The notes beneath the pieces were generated by a model. That model made no database searches and was not told the origin of the DNA. It saw nothing but the letters and a program-made list of their open reading frames with translations. A stretch of 20,588 bases of DNA from Dehalococcoidia bacterium (lineage in GTDB: Bacteria; Chloroflexota; Dehalococcoidia; DSTF01; RBG-16-68-14): NCBI GenBank assembly GCA_040882355.1, contig JBBEBM010000053.1, forward strand, positions 62,001 through 82,588, in the 5' to 3' direction. Of the stretch, positions 3,891 through 20,588 are shown piece by piece. The position numbers and the translations under genes are program-made. Numbering within the stretch: position 1 is the stretch's first letter; each line of letters opens with the position of its first letter.

Positions 3891-5081
3891 ATGGCGCCCA
3901 CGCCTGCCCTGAGCGACGCCGAAGGGGACGCCCCCCAGCCGCCCGCTTCCGGCGAGACCGTCCATCTCGACATCAACCCCAAGCTGCTGATCGACAACTA
4001 TCACGGCGAGCTCGACGCCGCCGCGCTCTACCGCGCCCTCGCCCGCCACGAGCACGAGGGGCGCGCGGACGTGCTCGCCGAGATGGCGGAAGCGGAGGAG
4101 CGCCACGCTGCGATCATGGCGAAGCGCCTCGACGAGATGGGCATCGCGCTGCCCAAGCACCGCACCAGCCTGCGCGTGCGCGTCCTCAGCGTGTTCGCGC
4201 GCGTCTTCGGCGCCCGCTCCGTCCTCCCGATCGTCGAGAGCTTCGAAGCGAAGGACTACGCCGCCTACCGCGAGCCGGAGCAGGACCCGGCAGTCATGGC
4301 GCTCGCCGGCGAAGAACGTGGCCACTACCGCACGCTGGGCAGCCTGACGCGCGGCACGCCGGGGCCGGTCGCCATCGCGCAGCACGAGAGCTGGCACCGC
4401 ACGGGCGGCGGCGGCACGCTGCGGGCGACGATCTTCGGCGTGAGCGACGGCCTCGTCTCGAACCTGTCGCTCGTGATGGGCTTCGCCGGTGCGCAGGCCG
4501 ACTCCCAGTTCGTCGTGCTCGCCGGCGTGGCCGGGCTGCTCGCCGGCGCCGCGTCGATGGCCGCGGGCGAGTACGTCTCGATGCGCTCCCAGCGCGAGCT
4601 GTTCGAGCGCCAGATCTCGCTCGAGGAGGCGGAGCTGGCGCTGGCGCCGGAGGAGGAGCGCGCTGAGCTGGCGCTGATCTATCGCGCGAAGGGCGTGCCA
4701 GCCGACGAGGCCGAGGTGCTCGCCGACCGCATCCTGGGCGACAAGCAGATCGCGCTCGATACGCTGGTGCGCGAGGAGCTGGGCCTCGACCCGAGCGAGC
4801 TGGGTTCCCCCTGGGGCGCGGCGATCGGCTCGTTCCTTGCGTTCGCAGCGGGCGCTATCGTGCCGGTGCTCGCGTACTTTAGCGGCAACGCGGGCTGGCT
4901 CCAGTTCGCGATCAGCGCGGTGATGAGCGGCATCGCCCTCTTCGCCGTGGGCGTTGGCGTCTCGCTCTTCACGGGCAAGAGCGCCCTCTACAGCGGCGCG
5001 CGACAGCTCGGCCTGGGCGCGGCGGCGGCGGCGATCACCTACGGCATCGGCTCGCTGATCGGCGTGAGCACGGGGATCTAG
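3891..5081 (+). CDS. VIT1/CCC1 family Fe/Mn transporter with N-terminal ferritin/rubrerythrin-like domain
   Basis: N-terminal ELDAAALY...EERH...EERGH carboxylate/His motifs; VIT1 motifs IFGVSDGLVSN, AGAASMAAGEYVS, REELGL; C-terminal TM helices. Confidence 0.88.
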   Translation: MAPTPALSDAEGDAPQPPASGETVHLDINPKLLIDNYHGELDAAALYRALARHEHEGRADVLAEMAEAEERHAAIMAKRLDEMGIALPKHRTSLRVRVLSVFARVFGARSVLPIVESFEAKDYAAYREPEQDPAVMALAGEERGHYRTLGSLTRGTPGPVAIAQHESWHRTGGGGTLRATIFGVSDGLVSNLSLVMGFAGAQADSQFVVLAGVAGLLAGAASMAAGEYVSMRSQRELFERQISLEEAELALAPEEERAELALIYRAKGVPADEAEVLADRILGDKQIALDTLVREELGLDPSELGSPWGAAIGSFLAFAAGAIVPVLAYFSGNAGWLQFAISAVMSGIALFAVGVGVSLFTGKSALYSGARQLGLGAAAAAITYGIGSLIGVSTGI

Positions 5082-6733: not shown

Positions 6734-6771
6734 TCTGTCAACGGATGAGGGAACGGACTAACGGATGGCGA
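6734..6771 (+). repeat. CGGAT-motif repeat; left arm of the inverted repeat pair around the nuclease gene
   Basis: TCTGTCAACGGATGAGGGAACGGACTAACGGATGGCGA matches the reverse complement of 7953-7989 with 2 substitutions and 1 indel. Confidence 0.85.
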
Positions 6772-6839: not shown

Positions 6840-7829
6840 TCATAAGGCCGCGTTCCATCGGGCTTGGGAAGCATCGCGTGCTTCGGCGATGGTGGGATAG
6901 GTGAACAATGTATCCAGCATGCACCACACGCGACCGCTCGGATAGATCTTCCCTGTCGGCAGGCGGTGGCTAGGGGCGAAGGCGGGTCCTAAGGTGTAGA
7001 GGAAAAACGGTTCGCCCCACTCGCCATCCGGAATCTCGGGTATCCGCTCGTGCATGTTTGTCACGACCTCGTAATCATCAAGGTGGTGAATCGACTGCAA
7101 AGCACCGTAATACCGGAACGCGATGTAGTTGGGCGGCTCCTTCGGCCATCCACGACCGCCAGCCGGGTGGAAGTAGCGCTGCCTCTCTTCTACAAGGTCG
7201 ATCCGCGAGACACCCCAGCCGTCGGGCGTTCCAGTCGCAAGCGACACGACGTACACGGCGTTCGAGTCCACGTTCTGCATCGTCACCAACCCTCCCAGAT
7301 AGATCAGCAGCTCATCGAGCAGCCGTTTTTCTTTGTGACCAGATCCCTTGCGAGCCGTGCTCGCCAGCGGCGCAACCTCTTTCCACGACAGAGCCTTGAT
7401 TGGTACGGTGAGACGCTCGCTCGACAGACGTCGTGCGGCAAAATCGTAACTGCATTCGCTCAGGACAACGATGAGCTTCGCGGGGGAGGTACTCCTCCGG
7501 AGCCTCTCGTCATACGTCTTAAGCTGACTATGATCCGGCAGATTCCAGCCCCGTTTCGCCTCGACAATCACGTGCACCACGCCAGGCACCTCGATTTCAA
7601 TGTCGGTGATACCGGCATCGCGCTTGTGCTCTTGCAGCCGAATGACCGCGTTGCTCGCATCTTCGGATGGACGGCCAACCGATTCGAGCAGTGCTCGAAC
7701 GAACCGAGGGCACTGGGCCAACACCCAGCCAAGGCTGAACGTCATGTCGTTTTCGTGATGGCCCAGGAGCTGGAAGACGCTCTTGACCTCACGGCCATGC
7801 AGAGTCAGTCGAAGCGGGTCATTCGCCAT
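6840..7829 (-). CDS. Hypothetical protein with PD-(D/E)XK nuclease-like N-terminal domain and unknown aromatic-rich C-terminal domain
   Basis: 329 aa; HENDMTFSLGWVL ... GITDIEI ... VIVEAK ... QLKTY pattern; visibly lower GC and weaker codon bias than neighbours; AGGAG/AAGGA RBS. Confidence 0.65.
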   Translation of the reverse strand: MANDPLRLTLHGREVKSVFQLLGHHENDMTFSLGWVLAQCPRFVRALLESVGRPSEDASNAVIRLQEHKRDAGITDIEIEVPGVVHVIVEAKRGWNLPDHSQLKTYDERLRRSTSPAKLIVVLSECSYDFAARRLSSERLTVPIKALSWKEVAPLASTARKGSGHKEKRLLDELLIYLGGLVTMQNVDSNAVYVVSLATGTPDGWGVSRIDLVEERQRYFHPAGGRGWPKEPPNYIAFRYYGALQSIHHLDDYEVVTNMHERIPEIPDGEWGEPFFLYTLGPAFAPSHRLPTGKIYPSGRVWCMLDTLFTYPTIAEARDASQARWNAAL

Positions 7830-8135
7830 CCGTTGATCCTTTCTCCTGTCCGTGAAAGACGGCCAACGCCCCGCCTGCGGCGGGCAGGGCGCGCAGCCGT
7901 GCGCCCCTACAGGTCTCGCTTCGGGCCGCGCGCTCTGTGTACAGCTCTGCGTTCGCTATCCGTTAATCCGTTCCTCATCCGTTGACAGACGCGCGACGCC
8001 CCCGCCTGCGGCGGGCAGGGCGCACAGCCGTGCGCCCCTACATCGTCTCGTGTCGGACCGAGTGCTTTCCGTACAGCGCCGCCGTCTGCCATCCGCTTAT
8101 CCGCTCCTACCATCCGCTATTCCGTTCGCGTTTCC
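7822..8135. repeat. Degenerate ~130-bp tandem repeat (~2.5 copies): CGGAT motif + CCCGCCTGCGGCGGG hairpin + REP (GTAGGGGCGCACGGCTG on minus)
   Basis: 7866-7911 nearly identical to ~7996-8042; CGGAT blocks begin at 7822, 7952 and ~8085. Confidence 0.8.
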
Positions 8136-8144
8136 GTCGGCGTA

Positions 8145-8458
8145 CCCGTCGCCTGCTCACACAGCTCGTAGAGCTTTGTCAGCCGACCCTCTCCCCGGTC
8201 CGCCTTCGGCGGGTCACCCCTCTCCCGCGCCGGGCGGGAGAGGGGCCGGGGGTGAGGGCTGCCACGTCATCCGCTAGTCCACCCCCGCATCGGGTCCCGC
8301 GCCCGTCGCCTGCTCACACAGCTCGTAGAGCTTTGTCAGCCGACCCTCTCCCCGGTCCGCCTTCGGCGGGTCACCCCTCTCCCGCGCCGGGCGGGAGAGG
8401 GGCCGGGGGTGAGGGCTGCCACGCCATCCGCTAGTCCACCCCCGCATCGGGTCCCGCG
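8145..8458. repeat. 157-bp near-perfect tandem duplication containing the mutS 3' end and a CCCCTCTCCCG...CGGGAGAGGGG hairpin
   Basis: 8145-8301 equals 8302-8458 except one substitution (gccacgTcat vs gccacgCcat). Confidence 0.92.
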
Positions 8459-11082: not shown

Positions 11083-11256
11083 GGTGGGGCGTCCCGCCTC
11101 CAGCCGGCATCGCTCCGGCCCAGAACGTTTGGCCTAGCGTAGCAGGAACGAAGAACAGGGGACAAGGCGGACACCGAGGACCCGCCGTGCCATCTCCGCC
11201 TTCGAGTTCTCCCACCCCTGTCTTACCTTAACCCTGGATAACCGCGCGTGGCATGC

Positions 11257-11306
11257 CCTGTCGCAGACTCGCCTGGGCGAGAGCCTGCCGAAGGGCTTGT
11301 CGAAGG
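11257..11306 (+). repeat. 50-bp palindromic dispersed repeat (inverted copy at 20068-20116)
   Basis: CCTGTCGCAGACTCGCCTGGGCGAGAGCCTGCCGAAGGGCTTGTCGAAGG; the inverted copy differs by a 1-nt indel. Confidence 0.88.
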
Positions 11307-11432
11307 TTGGCCGCGCTTAACGTGCGCATACTCGCAATTGAGCACCCGCTGGAGGAACTCTTGGAGGACCTGTCGAGCTGCCCATGGCCCATCTGCGCGC
11401 TGCCGGCCCGCGCCGGGACGAGCCGCGCAGCA

Positions 11433-11730
11433 GCGCCCGGCGTCGGGATCAATGAAACGACCCGTTTAGATTCACAGCCCGCAGCGCGCCGCGTCGGCTG
11501 GCTTCCAGGGCCAGCCGCTGAGAAAGGCGATTTTGCAAAACGGACTGGTCAATCAAACGTCTTGGGTAACGGGGCGGCGCCCGGCGTCGGGATCAATCAA
11601 ACGACCCGTTCAGATTCACAGCCCGCAGGACGCCGCAGCGGCTGGATTCCAGGGCCAGCCGCTGAGAAGGGCGATTTTGCAAAACGGACTGGTCAATCAA
11701 ACGTCTTGGGTAACGGGGCGGCGCCCGGCG
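11433..11730 (+). repeat. 144-bp tandem repeat (2 copies plus terminal GCGCCCGGCG)
   Basis: Units at 11433 and 11577, GCGCCCGGCG again at 11721; each unit has TCAAT(C/G)AAACG twice, 100 bp apart. Confidence 0.92.
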
Positions 11731-14027: not shown

Positions 14028-14729
14028 ATGGACCCCAGCGAAACGCTATCCGCCGTTCGACCCATGTTACGCCATCGCTGGCTGCGGATGCTGCTGCTCT
14101 GCACGCCGGGCATGATGGCGGGCGTCAGCATCCTCGCTGCTAGCCAGTCTGCTCTCTGGGTCGTGATCAGCCTGAACGCCATTGCAGGCGTCGTCATCTC
14201 CACCCTCCTCTTCCTGGGCGTGAGCCTGGTTGCCCGCCGGGCGGCGGACGAGCAGGTGGGTCTGGCCCGAGCGGCAGAGCAAGGTCTCTGGCGCGCGCGC
14301 GTGCAGCTCCTCACGATCCACGACGCCAACGGCCTCTACACCCACTGGTACTTCCGCCTCCGCCTCCAGGAAGAGGTCGAACGCTCCCGGCGCTACGGGC
14401 TCCACTTCGTCGTGGTGATCGTCAAGGCGCTGGCGCTCCACCAGGACGTGGAGGTCTCGACGGCGAGCGAGTGGTTCAGCGAGCGGATCCAGCGCCACCT
14501 ACGCAAGGCGGACCTGGCCGGCCTGCTGCAGGACGGCAGTCTGGCGATCCTGCTCCCAAACACCAGCCGCCGGAGCGCCATCCTGGCCAAGAAGCGGCTC
14601 GAGAAAGAGCTCAGCGCGGTGCGGCCGCGCATCGGCATCGCCTGCTTCCCCGATGATAGTGAAGACGCGGGCGAGCTCCTCGCGCAGGGCGCCCACGGCG
14701 CCCTTCAGGCGAACCTCGGCGTCGCCTGA
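14028..14729 (+). CDS. Membrane protein with degenerate GGDEF domain
   Basis: Two N-terminal hydrophobic helices; D..GLY...F..RLQEEVERSRRY, RKAD, LAILLPNT, IGIACFP..; GGDEF position reads QDGSL. Confidence 0.75.
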   Translation: MDPSETLSAVRPMLRHRWLRMLLLCTPGMMAGVSILAASQSALWVVISLNAIAGVVISTLLFLGVSLVARRAADEQVGLARAAEQGLWRARVQLLTIHDANGLYTHWYFRLRLQEEVERSRRYGLHFVVVIVKALALHQDVEVSTASEWFSERIQRHLRKADLAGLLQDGSLAILLPNTSRRSAILAKKRLEKELSAVRPRIGIACFPDDSEDAGELLAQGAHGALQANLGVA

Positions 14730-14846: not shown

Positions 14847-14877
14847 TTGACACAAGTCGAGGCTTAGCATACACTAA
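14847..14877 (+). promoter_or_regulatory. sigma70 promoter with overlapping TTAG-N6-CTAA operator (DtxR/MntR-like)
   Basis: TTGACA(14847)-N17-TACACT(14870); TTAGCATACACTAA at 14864-14877. Confidence 0.75.
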
Positions 14878-14900
14878 CGCCGCCTATGAGGAGGCGCGAG

Positions 14901-15341
14901 GTGGAACAGCTAGACATCCTGGGCATGCAGCAGGACCTCGGTGAGCGGAAGTCGTACCTCATGTTGCGTTCGCCCGAAACGGGCGCCGTCTTCGCCGTCA
15001 CCCTCTCGCCGCACCAGGTCGACCTGATCGAGACCGCCTCGTGCAAGTGCGCCCGCACGCCGTCCGCCGCCGAGTCGGTGGCAAGCGCGCTCGGACTCAG
15101 CCTCCAGTCGATCGTGTTGGAGCTGCACGGGCAGAAGCCTCAGGCGAAACTGAACCTTTCGCCTGAGGAGGGCGAAGCGCTGGCGGTCGACCTCCACGTC
15201 ATCGAGGCCTTCGCGGTGGCGCTCCGGCACGGCCTTCCGCTCCTACTCAAGAACCCCGACGGCGCCAAGGAAGACGGCCGGCATTCCTTGTCCAGTCCCG
15301 TGCGGTCATTCATCGAGACGCTCGACTTGAGCGGACTCTAA
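14901..15341 (+). CDS. Divergent DUF151/bifunctional nuclease (BFN)-like protein
   Basis: Overall pattern resembles DUF151 (..AVDLHVIEAFAVALRHGLPLLL vs typical EIDARPSDAIALALR..PI; C-terminal VRSFIETLDL); GTG 14901 behind GAGGAGG. Confidence 0.55.
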   Translation: MEQLDILGMQQDLGERKSYLMLRSPETGAVFAVTLSPHQVDLIETASCKCARTPSAAESVASALGLSLQSIVLELHGQKPQAKLNLSPEEGEALAVDLHVIEAFAVALRHGLPLLLKNPDGAKEDGRHSLSSPVRSFIETLDLSGL

Positions 15342-15365: not shown

Positions 15366-15962
15366 GTGAACACGCGAACCTGGATAGGACGGCTGATGGT
15401 GAGTCTGGCGATAGGCGGCTTGGTGGTCGTCGCAGTGGATGCTGTGGCCTGCGATGACAATGAATCAGGGGACCCGGACGCGACTATCGCTCCGGGCGCA
15501 GATCCCGAACCAGAGGCTGATCCGGAGGCGGACCCGGAGGCGGACCCGGAGGCCGAACCACAGCCCGAGCCCGGGCCGGGCGTCCAGCCGGCGCCCGCCG
15601 GCTCAACGCAGGTGACCGTCGAGCTGGATGAGTGGTCGATTACACCGGCGCCGGTGCAGGTCACCGGGCCCACCATCTACTTCCTAGCGACGAACGCCGG
15701 CAGTGAGCCCCATGAGCTGGTGGTCATCCGCAGCGACGAGGAGCCTGACCAGCTCCCCGTCCTGCGCGGCGCCGTGCCCGAGGACGAAGTGGACTTCCTT
15801 GGCGAGCTGGAGCAGTTCCCCGCCGGGGACCAGGCTTCCGGGGTGTTCCGGCTCACGCCCGGCAACTACGTGCTCATCTGCAACCTCGTCGAGACGGAGG
15901 AGGACGGCGTGCTGGAGAGCCACTACGAGCAGGGCATGCACACCGCCTTCACCGTCGAGTGA
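15366..15962 (+). CDS. Cupredoxin (type-1 blue copper) lipoprotein with acidic Pro/Ala-rich linker
   Basis: Signal peptide ending AVAC; NAGSEPHELVV (H116); GNYVLIC(172)...H186..GM191; GGAGG RBS. Confidence 0.85.
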   Translation: MNTRTWIGRLMVSLAIGGLVVVAVDAVACDDNESGDPDATIAPGADPEPEADPEADPEADPEAEPQPEPGPGVQPAPAGSTQVTVELDEWSITPAPVQVTGPTIYFLATNAGSEPHELVVIRSDEEPDQLPVLRGAVPEDEVDFLGELEQFPAGDQASGVFRLTPGNYVLICNLVETEEDGVLESHYEQGMHTAFTVE

Positions 15963-15983: not shown

Positions 15984-16015
15984 TTGACGACAACCATATA
16001 TTAGGCCACACTAAT
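15984..16015 (+). promoter_or_regulatory. sigma70 promoter with overlapping ATTAG-N6-CTAAT operator (DtxR/MntR-like)
   Basis: TTGACG(15984)-N17-CACACT(16007); ATTAGGCCACACTAAT at 16000-16015; AGGAG RBS before ATG 16036. Confidence 0.75.
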
Positions 16016-16035: not shown

Positions 16036-17097
16036 ATGCTACGCCGACACTTCTCGCTCACAGCCCTGGCTGGCGCGGCGCTCGTCGCGCTTGCCGCCGT
16101 GTCCTGCACGGGCGACGACGGCGAGACGCTGGTCATCGCAGTCCAGCCGACGAGCACCGCCGAGGAGCTGAGCGCGGACGCGGGCGAAATCGAGGACTTC
16201 CTCGAAGGTCGGCTCGACGTGGACGTCGAGCTGAACTTTCCGACAACCTACGCCGGTGTGATCGAAGCGCTCCGCTTCGGACACGCGGACGCGGCGTTCT
16301 TGGGCGCGTGGCCCGCGGCCCTCGCGAAGCAGGAGGCGGATGCGGACGTCGCCCTGGCCGAGATCCGCGAGGTGCTCATCGGCGATGAGAAGCAGGAGCA
16401 GCCCTACTACTTCTCCTACTGGGTCGTCCCGGAGGATAGCCCGTACACCAGCCTGGAGCAACTCGAGGGGAAAGCTGTGGCGTTCCCGAGCCAGATCTCC
16501 ACGTCCGGCTACGTCGCGCCGATGGCGCGGCTCGTCGAGCTAGGACTGCTGCCCGCCGGCGAGCAGGCCGACCCGAACGACTTCTTCGGTGAGGTCTTCT
16601 TCGCGGGCGGCTACGCGCAGGGCTGGGAGGCGCTCCAGGCCGGACAGGTAGACGCCACGGTCATCGCAGGCGACGTGCCGGAGGACCTGTACAACGAGGT
16701 GCTCGCGAACACGAAGGTGATCGACCAGCAGGGACCGGTGCCCTCGCACGCCGTCGTCTTCAGCAAAGACCTCGAGGACCCGCTGCGATCGCAGTTGCGC
16801 GACGCGCTCATGGAGCTGGGACAGCCCGAGAACCGGGAGCTGATGCGGAAGTTCATCTCCGGCATCTTCGTCCGGTTCGAGGAGTCCACAACAGAGGAGC
16901 ATCTCGGCCAGCTCAACGCCTACCTGGAGGCGACAGGTCTCACCTTCGTCGAGGGCAGCCCCGGCGGCGCGCAGCCCATCGCCGACCCGGAGCCCGAGGC
17001 CGATCCAGAGCCGGAAGCGGATCCCGAACCCGAAGCCACCATCCAGCCAGAAGCTGATCCCGAGCCAGAAGCCGACCCGGAGCCCGAGGCCAACTGA
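16036..17097 (+). CDS. PhnD/transferrin-fold ABC substrate-binding lipoprotein with C-terminal ADPEPE repeats
   Basis: Lipobox AVSC; PTTYAGVIEAL, STSGY, GQVDA motifs of the PhnD family; adjacent ATPase and permease. Confidence 0.85.
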   Translation: MLRRHFSLTALAGAALVALAAVSCTGDDGETLVIAVQPTSTAEELSADAGEIEDFLEGRLDVDVELNFPTTYAGVIEALRFGHADAAFLGAWPAALAKQEADADVALAEIREVLIGDEKQEQPYYFSYWVVPEDSPYTSLEQLEGKAVAFPSQISTSGYVAPMARLVELGLLPAGEQADPNDFFGEVFFAGGYAQGWEALQAGQVDATVIAGDVPEDLYNEVLANTKVIDQQGPVPSHAVVFSKDLEDPLRSQLRDALMELGQPENRELMRKFISGIFVRFEESTTEEHLGQLNAYLEATGLTFVEGSPGGAQPIADPEPEADPEPEADPEPEATIQPEADPEPEADPEPEAN

Positions 17098-17102
17098 TCG
17101 CG

Positions 17103-17909
17103 ATGATGCGTGACGCAGCGATGCCAGACGTGAAGACAGCAGCGCCGCCCTACCTGATCGCGGCGCTCGCCCCGGCTGGCCAGCCGGCCGCGAACGGCCG
17201 TGAGCCCGCGCTCGTCGCGCGCGACCTCTGGTTCTCCTACGACGGCCGCGCTCACGCCGTACGCGGCGTCGACCTCGCCGTGCCGCACGGCGCCATGACG
17301 ATGGTGCTCGGACGCAGCGGTAGCGGCAAGACGACCCTGCTCAAGACACTCCACGGACTGCTCCACCCGCAACGGGGCTCCGTGACCGTGGGCGCGAACG
17401 GTGGCGGCCTGCGCCACCGTATCGCGTACGTCCCGCAGACGTTGGGGCTCGTGCGCAACACGAGCGCGCTGGAGAACGCGCTCACCGGCGCGCTGGCCCG
17501 GGTCGGCACGGTGCGCTCGCTGCTCCGGCTCTTCCCGAAGAGCACCGTCGAGCAGGCGAAAGGGACGCTCGCGAGCCTGGGCCTCGGCGACAAGCTCAAC
17601 AAGCAGGTGTACGCCCTCAGCGGAGGCGAGCGCCAGCGCGTCGCGATCGCGCGCGCGCTGATGCAGGAGCCGTCCGTGATCCTGGCCGACGAGTTCGTCT
17701 CGCAGCTCGACCCGGTGACGGCGGAAGAGATCCTGGACATGATGCGCCGGATCGCCGCGGACGGCGTTAGCTTCCTGATTACCACGCACGAGACCGACAT
17801 CGTCGCGAAGTACGCCGACCAGGTCATCGTGATGCGCGAAGGCGCCATCGTTCACGACAGTCGCGCAGCGGCGCTCACCGAGGCCGAGATGGTGGACTTG
17901 CTGCGATGA
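17103..17909 (+). CDS. PhnC-like ABC transporter ATP-binding protein
   Basis: GRSGSGKT, LSGGERQRVAIARAL, ILADEFVSQLDP, TTHE; exact start uncertain (17103/17106/17121). Confidence 0.92.
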   Translation: MMRDAAMPDVKTAAPPYLIAALAPAGQPAANGREPALVARDLWFSYDGRAHAVRGVDLAVPHGAMTMVLGRSGSGKTTLLKTLHGLLHPQRGSVTVGANGGGLRHRIAYVPQTLGLVRNTSALENALTGALARVGTVRSLLRLFPKSTVEQAKGTLASLGLGDKLNKQVYALSGGERQRVAIARALMQEPSVILADEFVSQLDPVTAEEILDMMRRIAADGVSFLITTHETDIVAKYADQVIVMREGAIVHDSRAAALTEAEMVDLLR

Positions 17910-18724
17910 CGTCGCGGCAGATCACGGGCCGCGTGGCGTTCCTGGCGGTTGTCGCCGCGTTCGTCGTCTCGCTCTACCGCTTGGAGCTGCTCGACCCGTC
18001 CGTGGTCTGGCCAGCGCTCCAACGGCTCGGCGAGTTCGTCACGGAGCTGTTCCCGCCGAACTGGGACGTGACACGGACGCTCCTGGGCGCGATGGGCGAG
18101 ACGCTTCAGATCGCCTTCGCCGGCACGCTGCTCGGCTTCCTCTTTTCACTGCCCCTCGCCATCCTGGCGACGCGCACGCTCTTCGGCGGCACGGTGACCA
18201 CAGCCGCGCGACTCGTGATGGGCGCCGTCCGCACCGTCCCATCGCTGCTCTGGGGGGTGATCTTCGTGATCGGCTTCGGGCTGGGCCCAGCGGCGGGCGC
18301 GCTTGGCGTCGCGCTCTACACCGTCGGCTACATGGGCAAGCTGCTCTACGAGGCGTTCGAGGCGGCCGACGCGGAGGTGGTCGAGGCGGTGCGCAGCGTG
18401 AGCGCGAATCGACTTCAGCTCTTCGCGTTCGCGGTGCTGCCGGAGTCGGCGAACGCGCTGATCAGCCAGCTCCTCTTCATGTTCGAGTACAACATCCGCG
18501 CCTCATCGATCATGGGCTTCGTGGGAGCCGGGGGGATCGGCTACTACATGCTGGGGTACATCCAGTTGCTGCAGTACGAGAACCTGATGACCGCCCTGAT
18601 CATCACGTTCGTCGTCGTGATGGCGATCGACTACCTGAGCGTGCGGCTGCGCTCGCTCATCCTCTCGCCTTCGCCCGCGAGCGCACCCAGCCCGTTCGCC
18701 GGGCTCGTGCCGTCAGTCGGGTAG
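17906..18724 (+). CDS. PhnE/PtxC-like ABC transporter permease
   Basis: LFPPNW, ETLQIAFAGT, RTVPSL, GKLLYEAFE, FEYNIRASSIMGFVGAGGIG; ATGA overlap with the ATPase. Confidence 0.92.
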   Translation: MTSRQITGRVAFLAVVAAFVVSLYRLELLDPSVVWPALQRLGEFVTELFPPNWDVTRTLLGAMGETLQIAFAGTLLGFLFSLPLAILATRTLFGGTVTTAARLVMGAVRTVPSLLWGVIFVIGFGLGPAAGALGVALYTVGYMGKLLYEAFEAADAEVVEAVRSVSANRLQLFAFAVLPESANALISQLLFMFEYNIRASSIMGFVGAGGIGYYMLGYIQLLQYENLMTALIITFVVVMAIDYLSVRLRSLILSPSPASAPSPFAGLVPSVG

Positions 18725-19891
18725 CAGCCGGACGAACACCTCGTTCGAAAGCAGGCGGCCTCGTTCAGTGAGGCGCAGCGAGCCACCGTCGATTTCGATA
18801 AGGCCCCACTCGAAGGGCTCCGCCAGCCGCTCGCCATACAGCTCCAACGCATCGACGCTGAAGCGCTCGCGGAACGCCGCGAGGCTGACGCCTTCCACGA
18901 GGCGCAGGCCGAGCACGAGCGTGTCGGACATCGCCAGCTCCGGCGTGACGGTCTCGCCCGAGACGACCTGGCGCATCGGCGTCTCGCCCCCGCCCGCTTC
19001 CGCCGCCCGCCACGATTCGTCGACGAGCGTCAGGTGCTGCTGCGGCAGCGCGGCGTTGGCGAAGCGCACGCCGTCCAGGTAGGAGTGCGCGCCCGCCCCC
19101 AGCGCCAGGTACTCGCGGCACTGCCAGTAGGTGAGGTTGTGGCGACAGCGACGTCTTGGCCGCGCCCAGTTCGAGATCTCGTAATGCTCGTAGCCGGCGC
19201 GCGCGAGGCGCTCCTGCGTCCACTCGTACTGGTCCGCCTGCATGTCGGGATCGGGCGCGGGCGTGCGGCCGCGGGCGACGTCGCGCGCGAGCGGCGTGCC
19301 GTCTTCGACCGTGAGCGCGTAGAGCGAGAGGTGCTCCGGACCGAGCGCCAGCGCCTGCTCGGCGCTCTCCTGCCAGCGCTCGATCGGCTGCTCCGGCAAG
19401 CCGAAGATCAGGTCGAGGTTGACGTTGTCGAAGCCAGCGGAACGCGCCGCCCCGAACGCCGCCTTCGCGTCGGCGCCGGTGTGGATGCGGTCGAGCGCGC
19501 GCAGCTCGTCGTCGTGGAAGCTCTGCACGCCGATGCTGAGCCGGTTGACGCCGAGATCGCGCAGCCCGCGCAGGTACTCCTCGTCGAGCGACCCCGGGTT
19601 CGACTCCACCGTCACCTCGGCGTCGGGAGCGAAGTCGAACGACTCGCGCAGGGCATCCATGATCGGGCGCATCTCGTTCAGCGGCGTCAGGCTGGGCGTG
19701 CCGCCGCCGAAGAACACCGTCGCGACAGGGCGCCCTTCGGTGGCGCTGCGCCACAGCTTCGCCTCGCGCACGAGGCCAACGGTGTACGAGGGGATCATGT
19801 GCTCGTGGCCGGCGTACGAGTTGAAGTCGCAGTAGCCGCACTTGGCGGTGCAGAACGGGATGTGGACGTAGATCGAGAGGGGTTCGAGCAT
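18713..19891 (-). CDS. hemW: Radical SAM heme chaperone HemW (HemN-like)
   Basis: YVHIPFCTAKCGYCDFN (CxxxCxxC), FFGGGTPS, RLSIGVQSF, YEISNW, HNLTYW (HNxxYW); start probably ATG 19891, alternative 19900. Confidence 0.93.
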   Translation of the reverse strand: MLEPLSIYVHIPFCTAKCGYCDFNSYAGHEHMIPSYTVGLVREAKLWRSATEGRPVATVFFGGGTPSLTPLNEMRPIMDALRESFDFAPDAEVTVESNPGSLDEEYLRGLRDLGVNRLSIGVQSFHDDELRALDRIHTGADAKAAFGAARSAGFDNVNLDLIFGLPEQPIERWQESAEQALALGPEHLSLYALTVEDGTPLARDVARGRTPAPDPDMQADQYEWTQERLARAGYEHYEISNWARPRRRCRHNLTYWQCREYLALGAGAHSYLDGVRFANAALPQQHLTLVDESWRAAEAGGGETPMRQVVSGETVTPELAMSDTLVLGLRLVEGVSLAAFRERFSVDALELYGERLAEPFEWGLIEIDGGSLRLTERGRLLSNEVFVRLLPD

Positions 19892-19935
19892 CAAGTTCAT
19901 GGTAGCATGGGCGATCCTCGCGGGCGGGAGCAGAC

Positions 19936-20116
19936 CGACGTTTGATTGACCAGTCCGTTTGGCAAAAGCGCCTTTCTCGCAGGACAGCCCTCGAAGCTAG
20001 CGGGGCGGCGCACTCCGGGCTGCGATTCTGAACCAGCCGTTTGATTGATCCCGATGTCGGGTGACACCCTTCGACAAGCCCTCGGCAGGCTCTCGCCCAG
20101 GCGAGTCTGCGACAGG
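19936..20116 (-). repeat. Inverted diverged copy of the 144-bp element plus the 50-bp palindromic repeat
   Basis: Reverse complement reads ...CCCGACATCGGGATCAATCAAACG...GAGAAAGGCGCTTTTGCCAAACGGACTGGTCAATCAAACGTC, aligning with 11433-11720; 20068-20116 matches 11257-11306. Confidence 0.88.
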
Positions 20117-20276
20117 ACGGCGCTCGCGCCCAGGCGGGTCTGCTTCCGGGCAGACCCGGAACCGGGCAGCCGACGCCAGGTTGTCGACGGTCAGGATAAG
20201 GCAGGGCGGGAACAGCGCCTACGGGAAGACGGCACGGGAAGGCCAGCAGCCGACCACGCGGCGCTATCATGGCCTC

Positions 20277-20431: not shown

Positions 20432-20507
20432 GGGCGATTAGCTCAGTGGCTAGAGCGCTTCCTTCACACGGAAGAAGTCGCAGGTTCGAGTCCTGCATCG
20501 CCCACCA
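20432..20507 (+). tRNA. tRNA-Val (anticodon CAC)
   Basis: Acceptor GGGCGAT/ATCGCCC-A-CCA; D arm TAGCTCAGTGG; anticodon arm CTTCC-TTCACAC-GGAAG; T arm GGTTCGAGTCC. Confidence 0.97.
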
Positions 20508-20515
20508 TGCTGCGC

Positions 20516-20588
20516 GCCGAAGTGGTGGAATGGTAGACACGCTGCGTTCAGGGCGCAGTGCTCGCAAGGGCGTGTGGGTTCAAATCCC
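20516..20588 (+). tRNA. tRNA-Leu (anticodon CAG), truncated by the window end
   Basis: GCCGAAGTGGTGGAATGGTAGACAC; anticodon arm CTGCG-TTCAGGG-CGCAG; long variable arm; GGTTCAAATCCC. Confidence 0.95.

What the first reader, a model, noticed from the sequence alone, without database searches (positions are those of the whole stretch)
16036..16970. PhnD-like binding protein with transferrin-type iron ligands
Seen: YYFSYWVVPEDS (Y125), STSG (155-158), FAGGYAQ (Y193), GPVPSHAVV (H238). Known, from memory of these sequences: the transferrin N-lobe binds Fe via Asp63, Tyr95 (YYAVAVVKKDS), Tyr188 (GYSGA) and His249 (VPSHTVV; VPSHAVV in lactoferrin). Canonical PhnD/PtxB have a His in GxHD where this protein has GGY. 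Three of the four ligand positions appear matched, and STSG could hold the anion. Caveats: the Asp63-equivalent is Gly here (ADAAFLG90), and the first Tyr is also conserved in ordinary PhnD.
Basis: partly seen in the sequence, partly recalled or inferred. Interest (0 to 1): 0.78.

Follow-up and report, generated by a model that had tools for sequence, protein, structure and literature searches.

The report
Transferrin-like iron importer mislabelled phosphonate transporter
A bacterial binding protein labelled as a phosphonate carrier has three of the four residues that animal transferrin uses to hold iron and lies behind a predicted metal-repressor site, so its transporter likely imports ferric iron and likely belongs to the microbial family closest to transferrin.

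Summary
Observation confirmed; the gene runs 16036-17097 and heads a PhnD-PhnC-PhnE-type ABC operon. Y125, S155-G158, Y193 and H238 are invariant in 120 of 120 close homologs. Through bridging homologs they align with transferrin's two Tyr and, weakly, its His ligand. The Asp ligand (Gly90) and the carbonate-anchoring Arg (Ser155) are missing.

Context points to a metal. DtxR, FTR1 or Fur genes flank 40 of 80 related loci, against 0 of 40 canonical PhnD loci of the same phylum. A DtxR-type TTAG-N6-CTAA box precedes 27 of 81 loci (shuffles 0.31). The Tyr/His clade is much closer to transferrin than canonical PhnD is; some members (Nitrosopumilus, Heimdallarchaeota) have all four ligands.

Best reading: a ferric-iron-plus-anion importer (0.62). 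Manganese or another metal is a real rival (0.2), because roseobacter members sit beside MntR. No binding was measured. The transferrin-PhnD kinship is already published (McQuaid 2018, seen only through a review), and this scan found the same clade twice before on other genomes (e1-2234305, e1-5316087).

The parts
16036..17097 (+). Substrate-binding lipoprotein, PhnD fold, Tyr/Tyr/His clade (353 aa)
16036..16107 (+). Predicted lipoprotein signal peptide ending at Cys24
   Evidence: sequence; Cys24 kept in at least 90% of aligned rows
16303..16305 (+). Gly90, at the position of transferrin's Asp ligand (ligand absent)
16360..16362 (+). Glu109, invariant; aligns with ovotransferrin Glu80 (second-shell role recalled, not checked)
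   Evidence: 120 of 120; 38 of 47 Tyr/His rows vs 4 of 40 canonical
16408..16410 (+). Tyr125, equivalent of the first transferrin Tyr ligand; shared with canonical PhnD/PtxB
16498..16509 (+). S155-T156-S157-G158 anion cradle (PtxB STS motif; Ser155 at the place of transferrin's carbonate-binding Arg)
16612..16614 (+). Tyr193, equivalent of the second transferrin Tyr ligand; His in canonical PhnD/PtxB
16672..16674 (+). Asp213, invariant in the close clade; candidate substitute carboxylate (inference)
   Evidence: 120 of 120, 80 of 80, only 15 of 47 in the wider clade
16747..16749 (+). His238, equivalent of the transferrin His ligand; capping Tyr/Asp in PtxB/PhnD
16900..16902 (+). His289, clade-specific conserved His of unknown role
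   Evidence: 120 of 120; 39 of 47 Tyr/His rows, not among the six commonest residues in canonical rows
16972..17094 (+). Acidic Pro-rich tail; the same kind of linker joins the binding domain to a cupredoxin in fused homologs
16001..16014 (+). TTAG-N6-CTAA palindrome (predicted DtxR-family operator), just after a TTGACG hexamer at 15984-15989
   Evidence: TroR motif in PMC10783522
17103..17909 (+). ABC ATPase, PhnC-like (below the PhnC equivalog cut-off)
17906..18724 (+). Single PhnE-type permease with clade-specific Tyr138, Glu180, Met192, Tyr195
   Evidence: TIGR01097 240 vs cut-off 216.7
15366..15962 (+). Exported cupredoxin (domain 15603-15959) with a His...Cys...His...Met set; fused to the binding protein in homologs
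14886..15341 (+). Small gene ahead of the cupredoxin; only a faint bifunctional-nuclease-domain match (E 0.19); role unknown
14847..14877 (+). Sigma-70-type promoter match (14847-14875) overlapped by a second TTAG-N6-CTAA box (14864-14877)

Best explanation
This operon encodes an ABC transporter whose binding protein carries Tyr125, Tyr193 and His238 at transferrin's ligand positions, and it likely imports ferric iron under predicted repression by a DtxR-family regulator. Shown: the residues and their conservation, the operon layout, the palindromic box, the DtxR gene elsewhere in the genome, the iron-gene neighbourhood in relatives, and fusion to a cupredoxin in some homologs. Inferred: (1) when metal is scarce the repressor leaves the two boxes and the cupredoxin and transporter genes are transcribed; (2) the membrane-anchored protein closes on Fe(III) held by two phenolates and one imidazole; (3) the inherited STSG helix end holds a synergistic anion (phosphate, carbonate or a small carboxylate such as citrate), which, perhaps with Asp213, fills the sites left by the missing Asp; (4) the permease, in which His and Arg have become Tyr and Met, passes the metal inward; (5) least certain, the blue-copper protein oxidises Fe(II) to Fe(III) for capture.
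For: Conservation: 120 of 120 and 80 of 80. Covariation of Tyr193 with His238: 47 both, 54 neither, 9 one only, of 110. Tyr/His rows and His-type rows are separated by one change on a tree built without those columns (SH-aLRT 93). Closeness to transferrin: the clade profile scores melanotransferrin 87 and ovotransferrin 76 bits, the control profile 35 and 34. PF00405 is matched at E<=0.1 by 18 of 44 vs 1 of 33. A Heimdallarchaeota member has transferrins as its best PDB hits (E 2.8e-12; first PhnD-type 0.007). The model superposes on holo-ovotransferrin N-lobe at Z 22.9, rmsd 2.9 over 259 residues. Neighbours within about 6 kb of 80 loci: DtxR 33, FTR1 14, Fur 5, TonB receptor 15, against none in 40 canonical loci (Pfam identities). 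Box: upstream in 27 of 81 loci (shuffle mean 0.31, maximum 3; other spacings 0), 7 of 22 class-sample loci, 0 of 40 controls and 25 of 30 Nitrosopumilaceae loci (shuffle 0.38). It matches the motif of iron-sensing TroR (PMC10783522). Two of the genome's 4 exact boxes lie here. Permease: Tyr138 in 71 of 71 and 26 of 26 vs His in 16 of 26 controls; Met192 in 64 of 71 and 24 of 26 vs Arg in 15 of 26. Transferrin can hold Fe(III) with two Tyr plus anions alone and prefers hard Lewis-acid ions (PMC3525939, PMC9957567 passages).
Against: No binding or expression data. Two of transferrin's key residues are missing here (Asp ligand, carbonate Arg). The protein itself has no PF00405 match, and its direct PDB search gives PtxB at E 7.7e-16 and a transferrin only at E 1. 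By fold, PhnD-type proteins (Z up to 25.7) rank above or tie with transferrin lobes. The His equivalence rests on low-scoring segments. The box does not name the metal: the alphaproteobacterial MntR site has the same TAG-N6-CTA spacing (PMC1698941). Roseobacter Tyr/His members lie beside an annotated MntR and keep the canonical permease His and Arg. A predicted cobalt-transporter gene (CbtA) lies near most Nitrosopumilaceae loci. Half of the 80 loci have no DtxR, FTR1 or Fur neighbour, and 17 of 80 have neither such a gene, a TonB receptor nor a box. Related genomes are not independent, and the clade profile was chosen by two of the matching residues.
Confidence: 0.62

Rival explanations
1. 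It is a metal importer, but for manganese (or cobalt, or Fe and Mn alike), controlled by a Mn-sensing DtxR-family repressor; an oxidising partner would deliver Mn(III) to the Tyr/His site.
For: Roseobacter plasmid members sit divergently from a gene annotated mntR, behind a di-haem peroxidase-like gene, with the same box; 42 plasmid records match a member of that subclade. The MntR consensus has the same spacing. The genome's own DtxR has Asp at the first metal-site position, which I recall as MntR-like (numbering recalled). CbtA neighbours in Nitrosopumilaceae. No Nramp was found in the own genome.
Against: The close clade is flanked by FTR1 (14 of 80), Fur (5) and TonB-receptor/ExbBD genes (15; 10). 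A phenolate-rich site favours trivalent ions over Mn(II) (general chemistry; PMC9957567 passages). Roseobacter members branch nearest the canonical rows on the tree and have a canonical permease, so they may differ from this locus. The second DtxR metal position is mostly His here and Glu in the roseobacter MntR.
Confidence: 0.2
2. It is still an oxyanion carrier (phosphate, phosphite, phosphonate or another oxyanion): the Tyr193/His238 pair retunes anion specificity, and the operon is only co-regulated with iron genes.
For: PF12974, TIGR01098 and TIGR01097 are met. STS, Tyr125 and mostly Tyr72 are kept as in PtxB. The best sequence and fold matches of the protein itself are PtxB, ArrX and PhnD. 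HtxB shows that these two positions can change with the anion.
Against: 0 of 40 canonical loci share the iron neighbours or the upstream box. The permease loses its His and Arg. The clade gains further transferrin-like positions (Asp90 in 10 of 47, Glu109). No PhnJ was found in the own genome (94% complete) or in 22 carriers, though this is weak because only 4 of 50 other genomes of the class have it.
Confidence: 0.12
3. It binds a preformed small iron chelate or Fe(II) as an intact substrate rather than chelating Fe(III) directly as transferrin does.
For: Gly/Ser90 leaves room for a bulky ligand; TonB-dependent receptors flank 15 of 80 loci.
Against: Two invariant Tyr and a His at the exact transferrin positions suit direct inner-sphere binding. 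Homologs with all four ligands exist: Asp90, Tyr193 and His238 in 30 of 30 Nitrosopumilaceae loci, and the Tyr125 motif in 28 of 30.
Confidence: 0.06

Closest known systems
PhnD/PtxB/HtxB family of ABC binding proteins (PF12974, TIGR01098) with PhnC and PhnE
   Same: Fold, STS anion cradle, hinge Tyr, operon layout, PhnE-type permease.
   Different: His of STS-H is Tyr193; the capping Tyr/Asp is His238; below the PhnD equivalog cut-off; permease His/Arg become Tyr/Met; DtxR box and iron-gene neighbours in place of any found in canonical loci.
Transferrin lobe (serum transferrin, ovotransferrin, lactoferrin, melanotransferrin; PF00405)
   Same: Lobe fold (Z 22.9, rmsd 2.9, 259 residues), both Tyr ligands and the His ligand, the Glu at ovotransferrin 80, an anion site at the same helix end.
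   Different: One lobe, predicted lipoprotein, coupled to an ABC transporter; Gly for the Asp ligand; Ser for the carbonate Arg; no PF00405 match for this protein.
FbpA/FutA/AfuA ferric-binding proteins with FbpBC (features recalled)
   Same: Proposed job: Fe(III) with Tyr, Tyr, His and a synergistic anion, handed to an ABC importer.
   Different: Different family: no PF13343 match, the Tyr ligands are 68 residues apart rather than adjacent, and the permease is PhnE-type.
Phytotransferrin (ISIP2a)
   Same: Reported common origin with transferrin among phosphonate-binding periplasmic proteins (McQuaid 2018 as summarised in PMC7676907).
   Different: Eukaryotic, taken up by endocytosis; no sequence comparison with it was made here.
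EfeUOB and Fet3/Ftr1 oxidase-coupled iron uptake (mechanism recalled)
   Same: A cupredoxin or peroxidase partner beside an iron-uptake unit; the window's cupredoxin model matches auracyanin, EfeO and azurin; FTR1 neighbours 14 of 80 loci.
   Different: Here the carrier is an ABC system; no FTR1 was found in the own genome; the oxidation step is untested.

Membership tests
PhnD/PtxB phosphonate-phosphite binding proteins | Family profiles PF12974 and TIGR01098 above cut-off | tested here: met
   167 vs 27 bits; 146.9 vs 112
PhnD/PtxB phosphonate-phosphite binding proteins | PhnD equivalog TIGR03431 above cut-off | tested here: not met
   128.1 vs 261.1
PhnD/PtxB phosphonate-phosphite binding proteins | STS-H ligand motif | tested here: not met
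   STS kept, His replaced by Tyr193 in 120 of 120
PhnD/PtxB phosphonate-phosphite binding proteins | Capping Tyr (PtxB) or Asp (E. coli PhnD, HtxB) | tested here: not met
   His238 at that column
PhnD/PtxB phosphonate-phosphite binding proteins | C-P lyase in the genome | tested here: inconclusive
   PhnJ not found in own genome (94% complete) or 22 carriers, but present in only 4 of 50 other genomes of the class
Transferrin family | PF00405 match | tested here: not met
   None for this protein; 4 of 9 scanned Asp90 homologs and P0124 pass the cut-off of 20.3
Transferrin family | Lobe fold | tested here: met
   Z 22.9, rmsd 2.9, 259 aligned to 1iej; PhnD-type chains score as high or higher
Transferrin family | Two Tyr ligands (human Tyr95, Tyr188) | tested here: met
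   Y125 = ovotransferrin Y92, Y193 = Y191 via bridging homologs; ligand set from PMC3525939, ovotransferrin equivalence recalled
Transferrin family | His ligand (human His249) | tested here: met
   H238 aligns with melanotransferrin H279 and ovotransferrin H592, in low-scoring segments
Transferrin family | Asp ligand (human Asp63) | tested here: not met
   Gly90; Asp in 0 of 120 close homologs, 10 of 47 distant Tyr/His rows
Transferrin family | Arg anchoring carbonate (human Arg124) | tested here: not met
   Ser155 at ovotransferrin Arg121
Transferrin family | Binds Fe(III) with a synergistic anion | not testable with these tools
   needs spectroscopy or a structure
FbpA/FutA ferric-binding proteins | PF13343 family match and adjacent Tyr pair | tested here: not met
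   no PF13343 match at E<=0.001; Tyr125 and Tyr193 are far apart in sequence
FbpA/FutA ferric-binding proteins | Structural match to FbpA | tested here: inconclusive
   not among the rows shown
DtxR-family regulon | Palindromic operator at the promoter and a DtxR gene in the genome | tested here: met
   boxes at 16001 and 14864; DtxR with FeoA domain on contig C77
DtxR-family regulon | Metal sensed is iron | tested here: inconclusive
   metal-site residues mixed; MntR uses the same spacing
Type 1 copper cupredoxin (upstream gene) | Cupredoxin fold with His, Cys, His, Met | tested here: met
   model pLDDT 97; best matches auracyanin E 8.8e-7, EfeO, azurin; four residues invariant in 11 rows; no Pfam match above cut-off

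The most novel reading that the evidence does not exclude
The Tyr/Tyr/His clade is the living prokaryotic stem of transferrin. It would be a widespread, unrecognised ABC importer of Fe(III) plus anion in Chloroflexota, Acidobacteria, Planctomycetota, Omnitrophota, ammonia-oxidising archaea and Asgard archaea, fed in some lineages by a blue-copper ferroxidase. The orphan 'phnCDE' of marine ammonia-oxidising archaea would then be their missing iron transporter, and eukaryotic transferrin would descend from an archaeal member that has all four ligands.
Probability: 0.3. Interest if true: 0.9.

Novelty: new variant of a known kind. Interest (0 to 1): 0.7.

Why it matters
It gives a testable answer to two stated gaps. 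The phnCDE of ammonia-oxidising archaea was suggested to carry 'a different substrate' (PMC7490402), and no iron-specific importer is known in Nitrosopumilus maritimus (PMC6776035, PMC9723733); I did not check that strain's own gene. The clade also offers single-lobe proteins with three or four transferrin ligands on an intact PhnD anion cradle, so the switch from anion carrier to iron carrier can be studied residue by residue. The kinship itself is already in print, which limits the surprise.

Tried and rejected
Direct sequence search of the protein, or of residues 184-245, against the PDB did not reach transferrin (E 1; only cutinase); bridging homologs were needed. Fold search alone does not separate PhnD from transferrin, and FbpA was not among the rows shown. 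The ESM Atlas gave only PF12974 clusters. The 19-base TTAGG-N9-CCTAA pattern had 0 of 81 hits. Absence of FeoB (own genome, 0 of 22 carriers, 8 of 50 others) and of PhnJ (0 of 22 vs 4 of 50) is too weak to count. The genome also has two FecB-type binding proteins, no Nramp and no FbpA-type match above cut-off. In one search the Tyr125 column read Gln for Nitrosopumilaceae because of a one-column shift; the motif check gave 28 of 30. No RNA holder was listed. McQuaid 2018 and the insect transferrin paper were not held. Ten literature searches listed no paper that characterises such a prokaryotic protein as a metal binder; I saw listings only for most hits, and most subscription papers are not in the library.

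Full report
**The gene and operon.** The ORF is 16036-17097 (353 aa), followed by an ATPase (17103-17909) and one permease (17906-18724). The binding protein meets PF12974 and TIGR01098 but not the PhnD equivalog; the permease meets TIGR01097. Source labels of close homologs are mostly Dehalococcoidia/Chloroflexota.

**Conservation.** Among the best 120 of 1012 homologs, E109, R111, Y125, S155-G158, Y193, D213, H238 and H289 are invariant; position 90 is Ser (70) or Gly (50). Y125, Y193 and H238 are also invariant in the best 80 of 156 genome loci, which span Chloroflexota, Acidobacteria, Planctomycetota, Rokubacteria, Omnitrophota, Binatia and archaea. From the 150 best 50%-identity representatives I kept the 113 of at least 240 aa, of which 110 had residues at the three columns. 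Y193 and H238 occur together in 47, neither in 54, one alone in 9. Asp at position 90 occurs in 10 of the 47 and in 0 of 40 rows with the canonical His at 193. On a quick tree without columns 90, 193 and 238, the canonical rows need one change against the Tyr/His rows (SH-aLRT 93, no bootstrap).

**Relation to transferrin.** The protein alone finds PtxB (E 7.7e-16) and a transferrin only at E 1, and it has no PF00405 match. I built a clade profile (window, 42 of the 47 Tyr/His rows, one Tyr-only row; long rows left out) and a control profile (33 of the 40 canonical rows). The clade profile scores melanotransferrin 87 and ovotransferrin 76 bits; the control scores 35 and 34, while scoring PtxB higher (251 vs 152). 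PF00405 is matched at E<=0.1 by 18 of 44 against 1 of 33. Part of this gain is by construction, but the best stretch against human transferrin (profile positions 71-167) appears to end before Tyr193. P0229, labelled Heimdallarchaeota, has transferrins as its top PDB hits. Counting in the printed alignments gives G90 = ovotransferrin D60, E109 = E80, Y125 = Y92, S155 = R121, Y193 = Y191, H238 = melanotransferrin H279 and ovotransferrin H592. The His segments score only 3.2 and -0.4 bits. The human ligand set (Asp63, Tyr95, Tyr188, His249, carbonate held by Arg124) and Fe binding by two Tyr plus anions alone come from passages of PMC3525939; the ovotransferrin numbering of the ligands is recalled. 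The AlphaFold model (pLDDT 85.5) matches PhnD-type chains at Z up to 25.7 and holo-ovotransferrin N-lobe at Z 22.9, rmsd 2.9, 259 residues. I could not read its coordinates. That the three side chains meet is inferred from PtxB, whose equivalent Tyr, His and capping Tyr line the pocket (PMC5700983 passages).

**Neighbourhood and regulation.** Recurring neighbours of the 80 loci were DtxR with FeoA domain, FTR1, Fur, TonB-dependent receptor, ExbB, ExbD and TonB. With profiles built from these neighbours, 40 of 80 loci carry DtxR, FTR1 or Fur (33, 14, 5) and 15 a TonB receptor; none of 40 canonical loci from the same phylum (about 6 kb each side where the contig allowed) carry any. In a class-wide sample, 11 of 22 Tyr/His loci have such a gene within 1.5 kb; some of these overlap the 80. 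TTAG-N6-CTAA lies upstream in 27 of 81 loci including the window (shuffle mean 0.31, maximum 3; spacings 5, 7 and 8 give 0) and upstream of 0 of 40 controls (1 of 40 anywhere). The 3.33-Mb genome has 4 exact copies: two here (14864, 16001), one before a probable ferritin-like di-iron gene (faint match, E 0.005) and one unexplained. The first overlaps the only promoter match in the region. The motif equals that of iron-sensing TroR of Haloferax (PMC10783522 passages), and the genome has a DtxR gene. Kin are not independent, so these counts describe a pattern and are not a test.

**Permease and partner.** The permease differs at Tyr138, Glu180, Met192 and Tyr195 in both the close clade and Nitrosopumilaceae, where controls mostly have His, Gln, Arg and Ile. 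I infer a path suited to a cation. The upstream gene 15366-15962 folds as a cupredoxin with invariant His, Cys, His, Met. The same domain is fused to the binding protein in 8 of 120 close homologs and in P0140 and P0187. Against a specific role, the genome has 7 related cupredoxin frames.

**Wider clade.** In the family of a Nitrosotenuis genome (taken as Nitrosopumilaceae), 50 of 101 genomes match the Nitrosopumilus protein P0160. In the top 30, Asp90, Tyr193 and His238 are present in 30, the Tyr125 motif in 28, and the box upstream in 25 (shuffle 0.38); a CbtA gene is usually nearby. Passages of PMC7490402 say the phnCDE of these archaea may carry a different substrate. Passages of PMC6776035 and PMC9723733 say N. 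maritimus lacks known iron-specific importers. Whether those papers mean this gene was not checked.

**Results against.** Roseobacter plasmids carry a Tyr/His member behind a peroxidase-like gene, divergent from an annotated mntR, with the same box and a canonical permease. The MntR site has the same spacing (PMC1698941 passages). The DtxR metal sites near the close clade are mixed. So the metal is not settled. Absence of PhnJ and FeoB is weak evidence.

**Mechanism.** Most likely (0.62): metal-repressed import of Fe(III), held by Tyr125, Tyr193 and His238 with an anion in the STSG cradle, possibly supplied by a copper oxidant. Rivals: manganese or another metal 0.2, oxyanion 0.12, intact chelate or Fe(II) 0.06. 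It works like a transferrin lobe or FbpA on this reading, but it is not a member of either family; by sequence it belongs to the PhnD superfamily and fails that family's ligand motif.

**Novelty.** The common origin of transferrin and phosphonate-binding proteins is published (McQuaid 2018, not held; seen only as summarised in PMC7676907), and NCBI already uses the name 'PhnD/SsuA/transferrin family'. I recall, unverified, that the paper also noted prokaryotic relatives beside iron genes; its text and supplements bear on novelty. Passages of PMC7972479 had nothing on prokaryotic homologs. My ten searches listed no experimental study of this clade. No supplements were read. Two earlier reports of this scan reached the same reading on other genomes; I had formed it before seeing them, and they are not independent evidence. 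Verdict: new variant of a known kind, interest 0.7.

Noticed in passing
window 3891-5081 (+): Rubrerythrin-VIT1 fusion gene (iron-export or detoxification type) about 11 kb upstream of the operon; no exact box before it.
   Followed up: no
G000:C34:10963-12123: One of the genome's four exact boxes lies just upstream of a probable ferritin-like di-iron gene with only a faint Pfam match.
   Followed up: partly
G000:C77:35263-37496 (L181): The genome's DtxR gene lies tail to tail with two exported cupredoxin-like genes.
   Followed up: partly
L185 3466-8323 (Salipiger abyssi pPABY3) and L186: Cassette mntR / di-haem peroxidase-like gene / Tyr-His binding protein / ATPase / PhnE on plasmids of cultured roseobacters; 42 plasmid records match the subclade; a tractable test system that may carry manganese.
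   Followed up: partly
P0229 (Heimdallarchaeota label): Single-lobe archaeal protein whose best PDB matches are all transferrins, with Asp, Tyr, Tyr, His in place; groups with Nitrosopumilus-type members on the tree.
   Followed up: partly
L193-L222: CbtA gene and a small helix-turn-helix gene recur upstream of the four-ligand operon in Nitrosopumilaceae.
   Followed up: partly
distant representatives, e.g. P0176, P0191, P0206, P0207, P0208: A branch inside the Tyr/His clade has lost both Tyr193 and His238, and many other members have a further Tyr at position 213 (23 of 47).
   Followed up: no
window 14028-14729 (+): Membrane protein with a degenerate GGDEF domain (E 7.5e-6) directly upstream of the boxed promoter.
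   Followed up: no
window 6840-7829 (-): Lower-GC 329-aa ORF without a Pfam match, flanked by a 31-nt imperfect inverted repeat (6741-6771 and 7823-7853); looks by eye like a PD-(D/E)xK nuclease.
   Followed up: no
window 8111-8424, 11430-11717, 11244-11705 with 19937-20129: Intergenic tandem duplications of 157 and 144 nt, and a dispersed repeat shared in inverted orientation between the 11.2-11.7 kb and 19.9-20.1 kb regions.
   Followed up: no
window 18713-19900 (-) and 20432-20588 (+): HemN/HemW-type radical SAM gene convergent on the operon; tRNA-Val(CAC) and a second tRNA cut by the window end.
   Followed up: no
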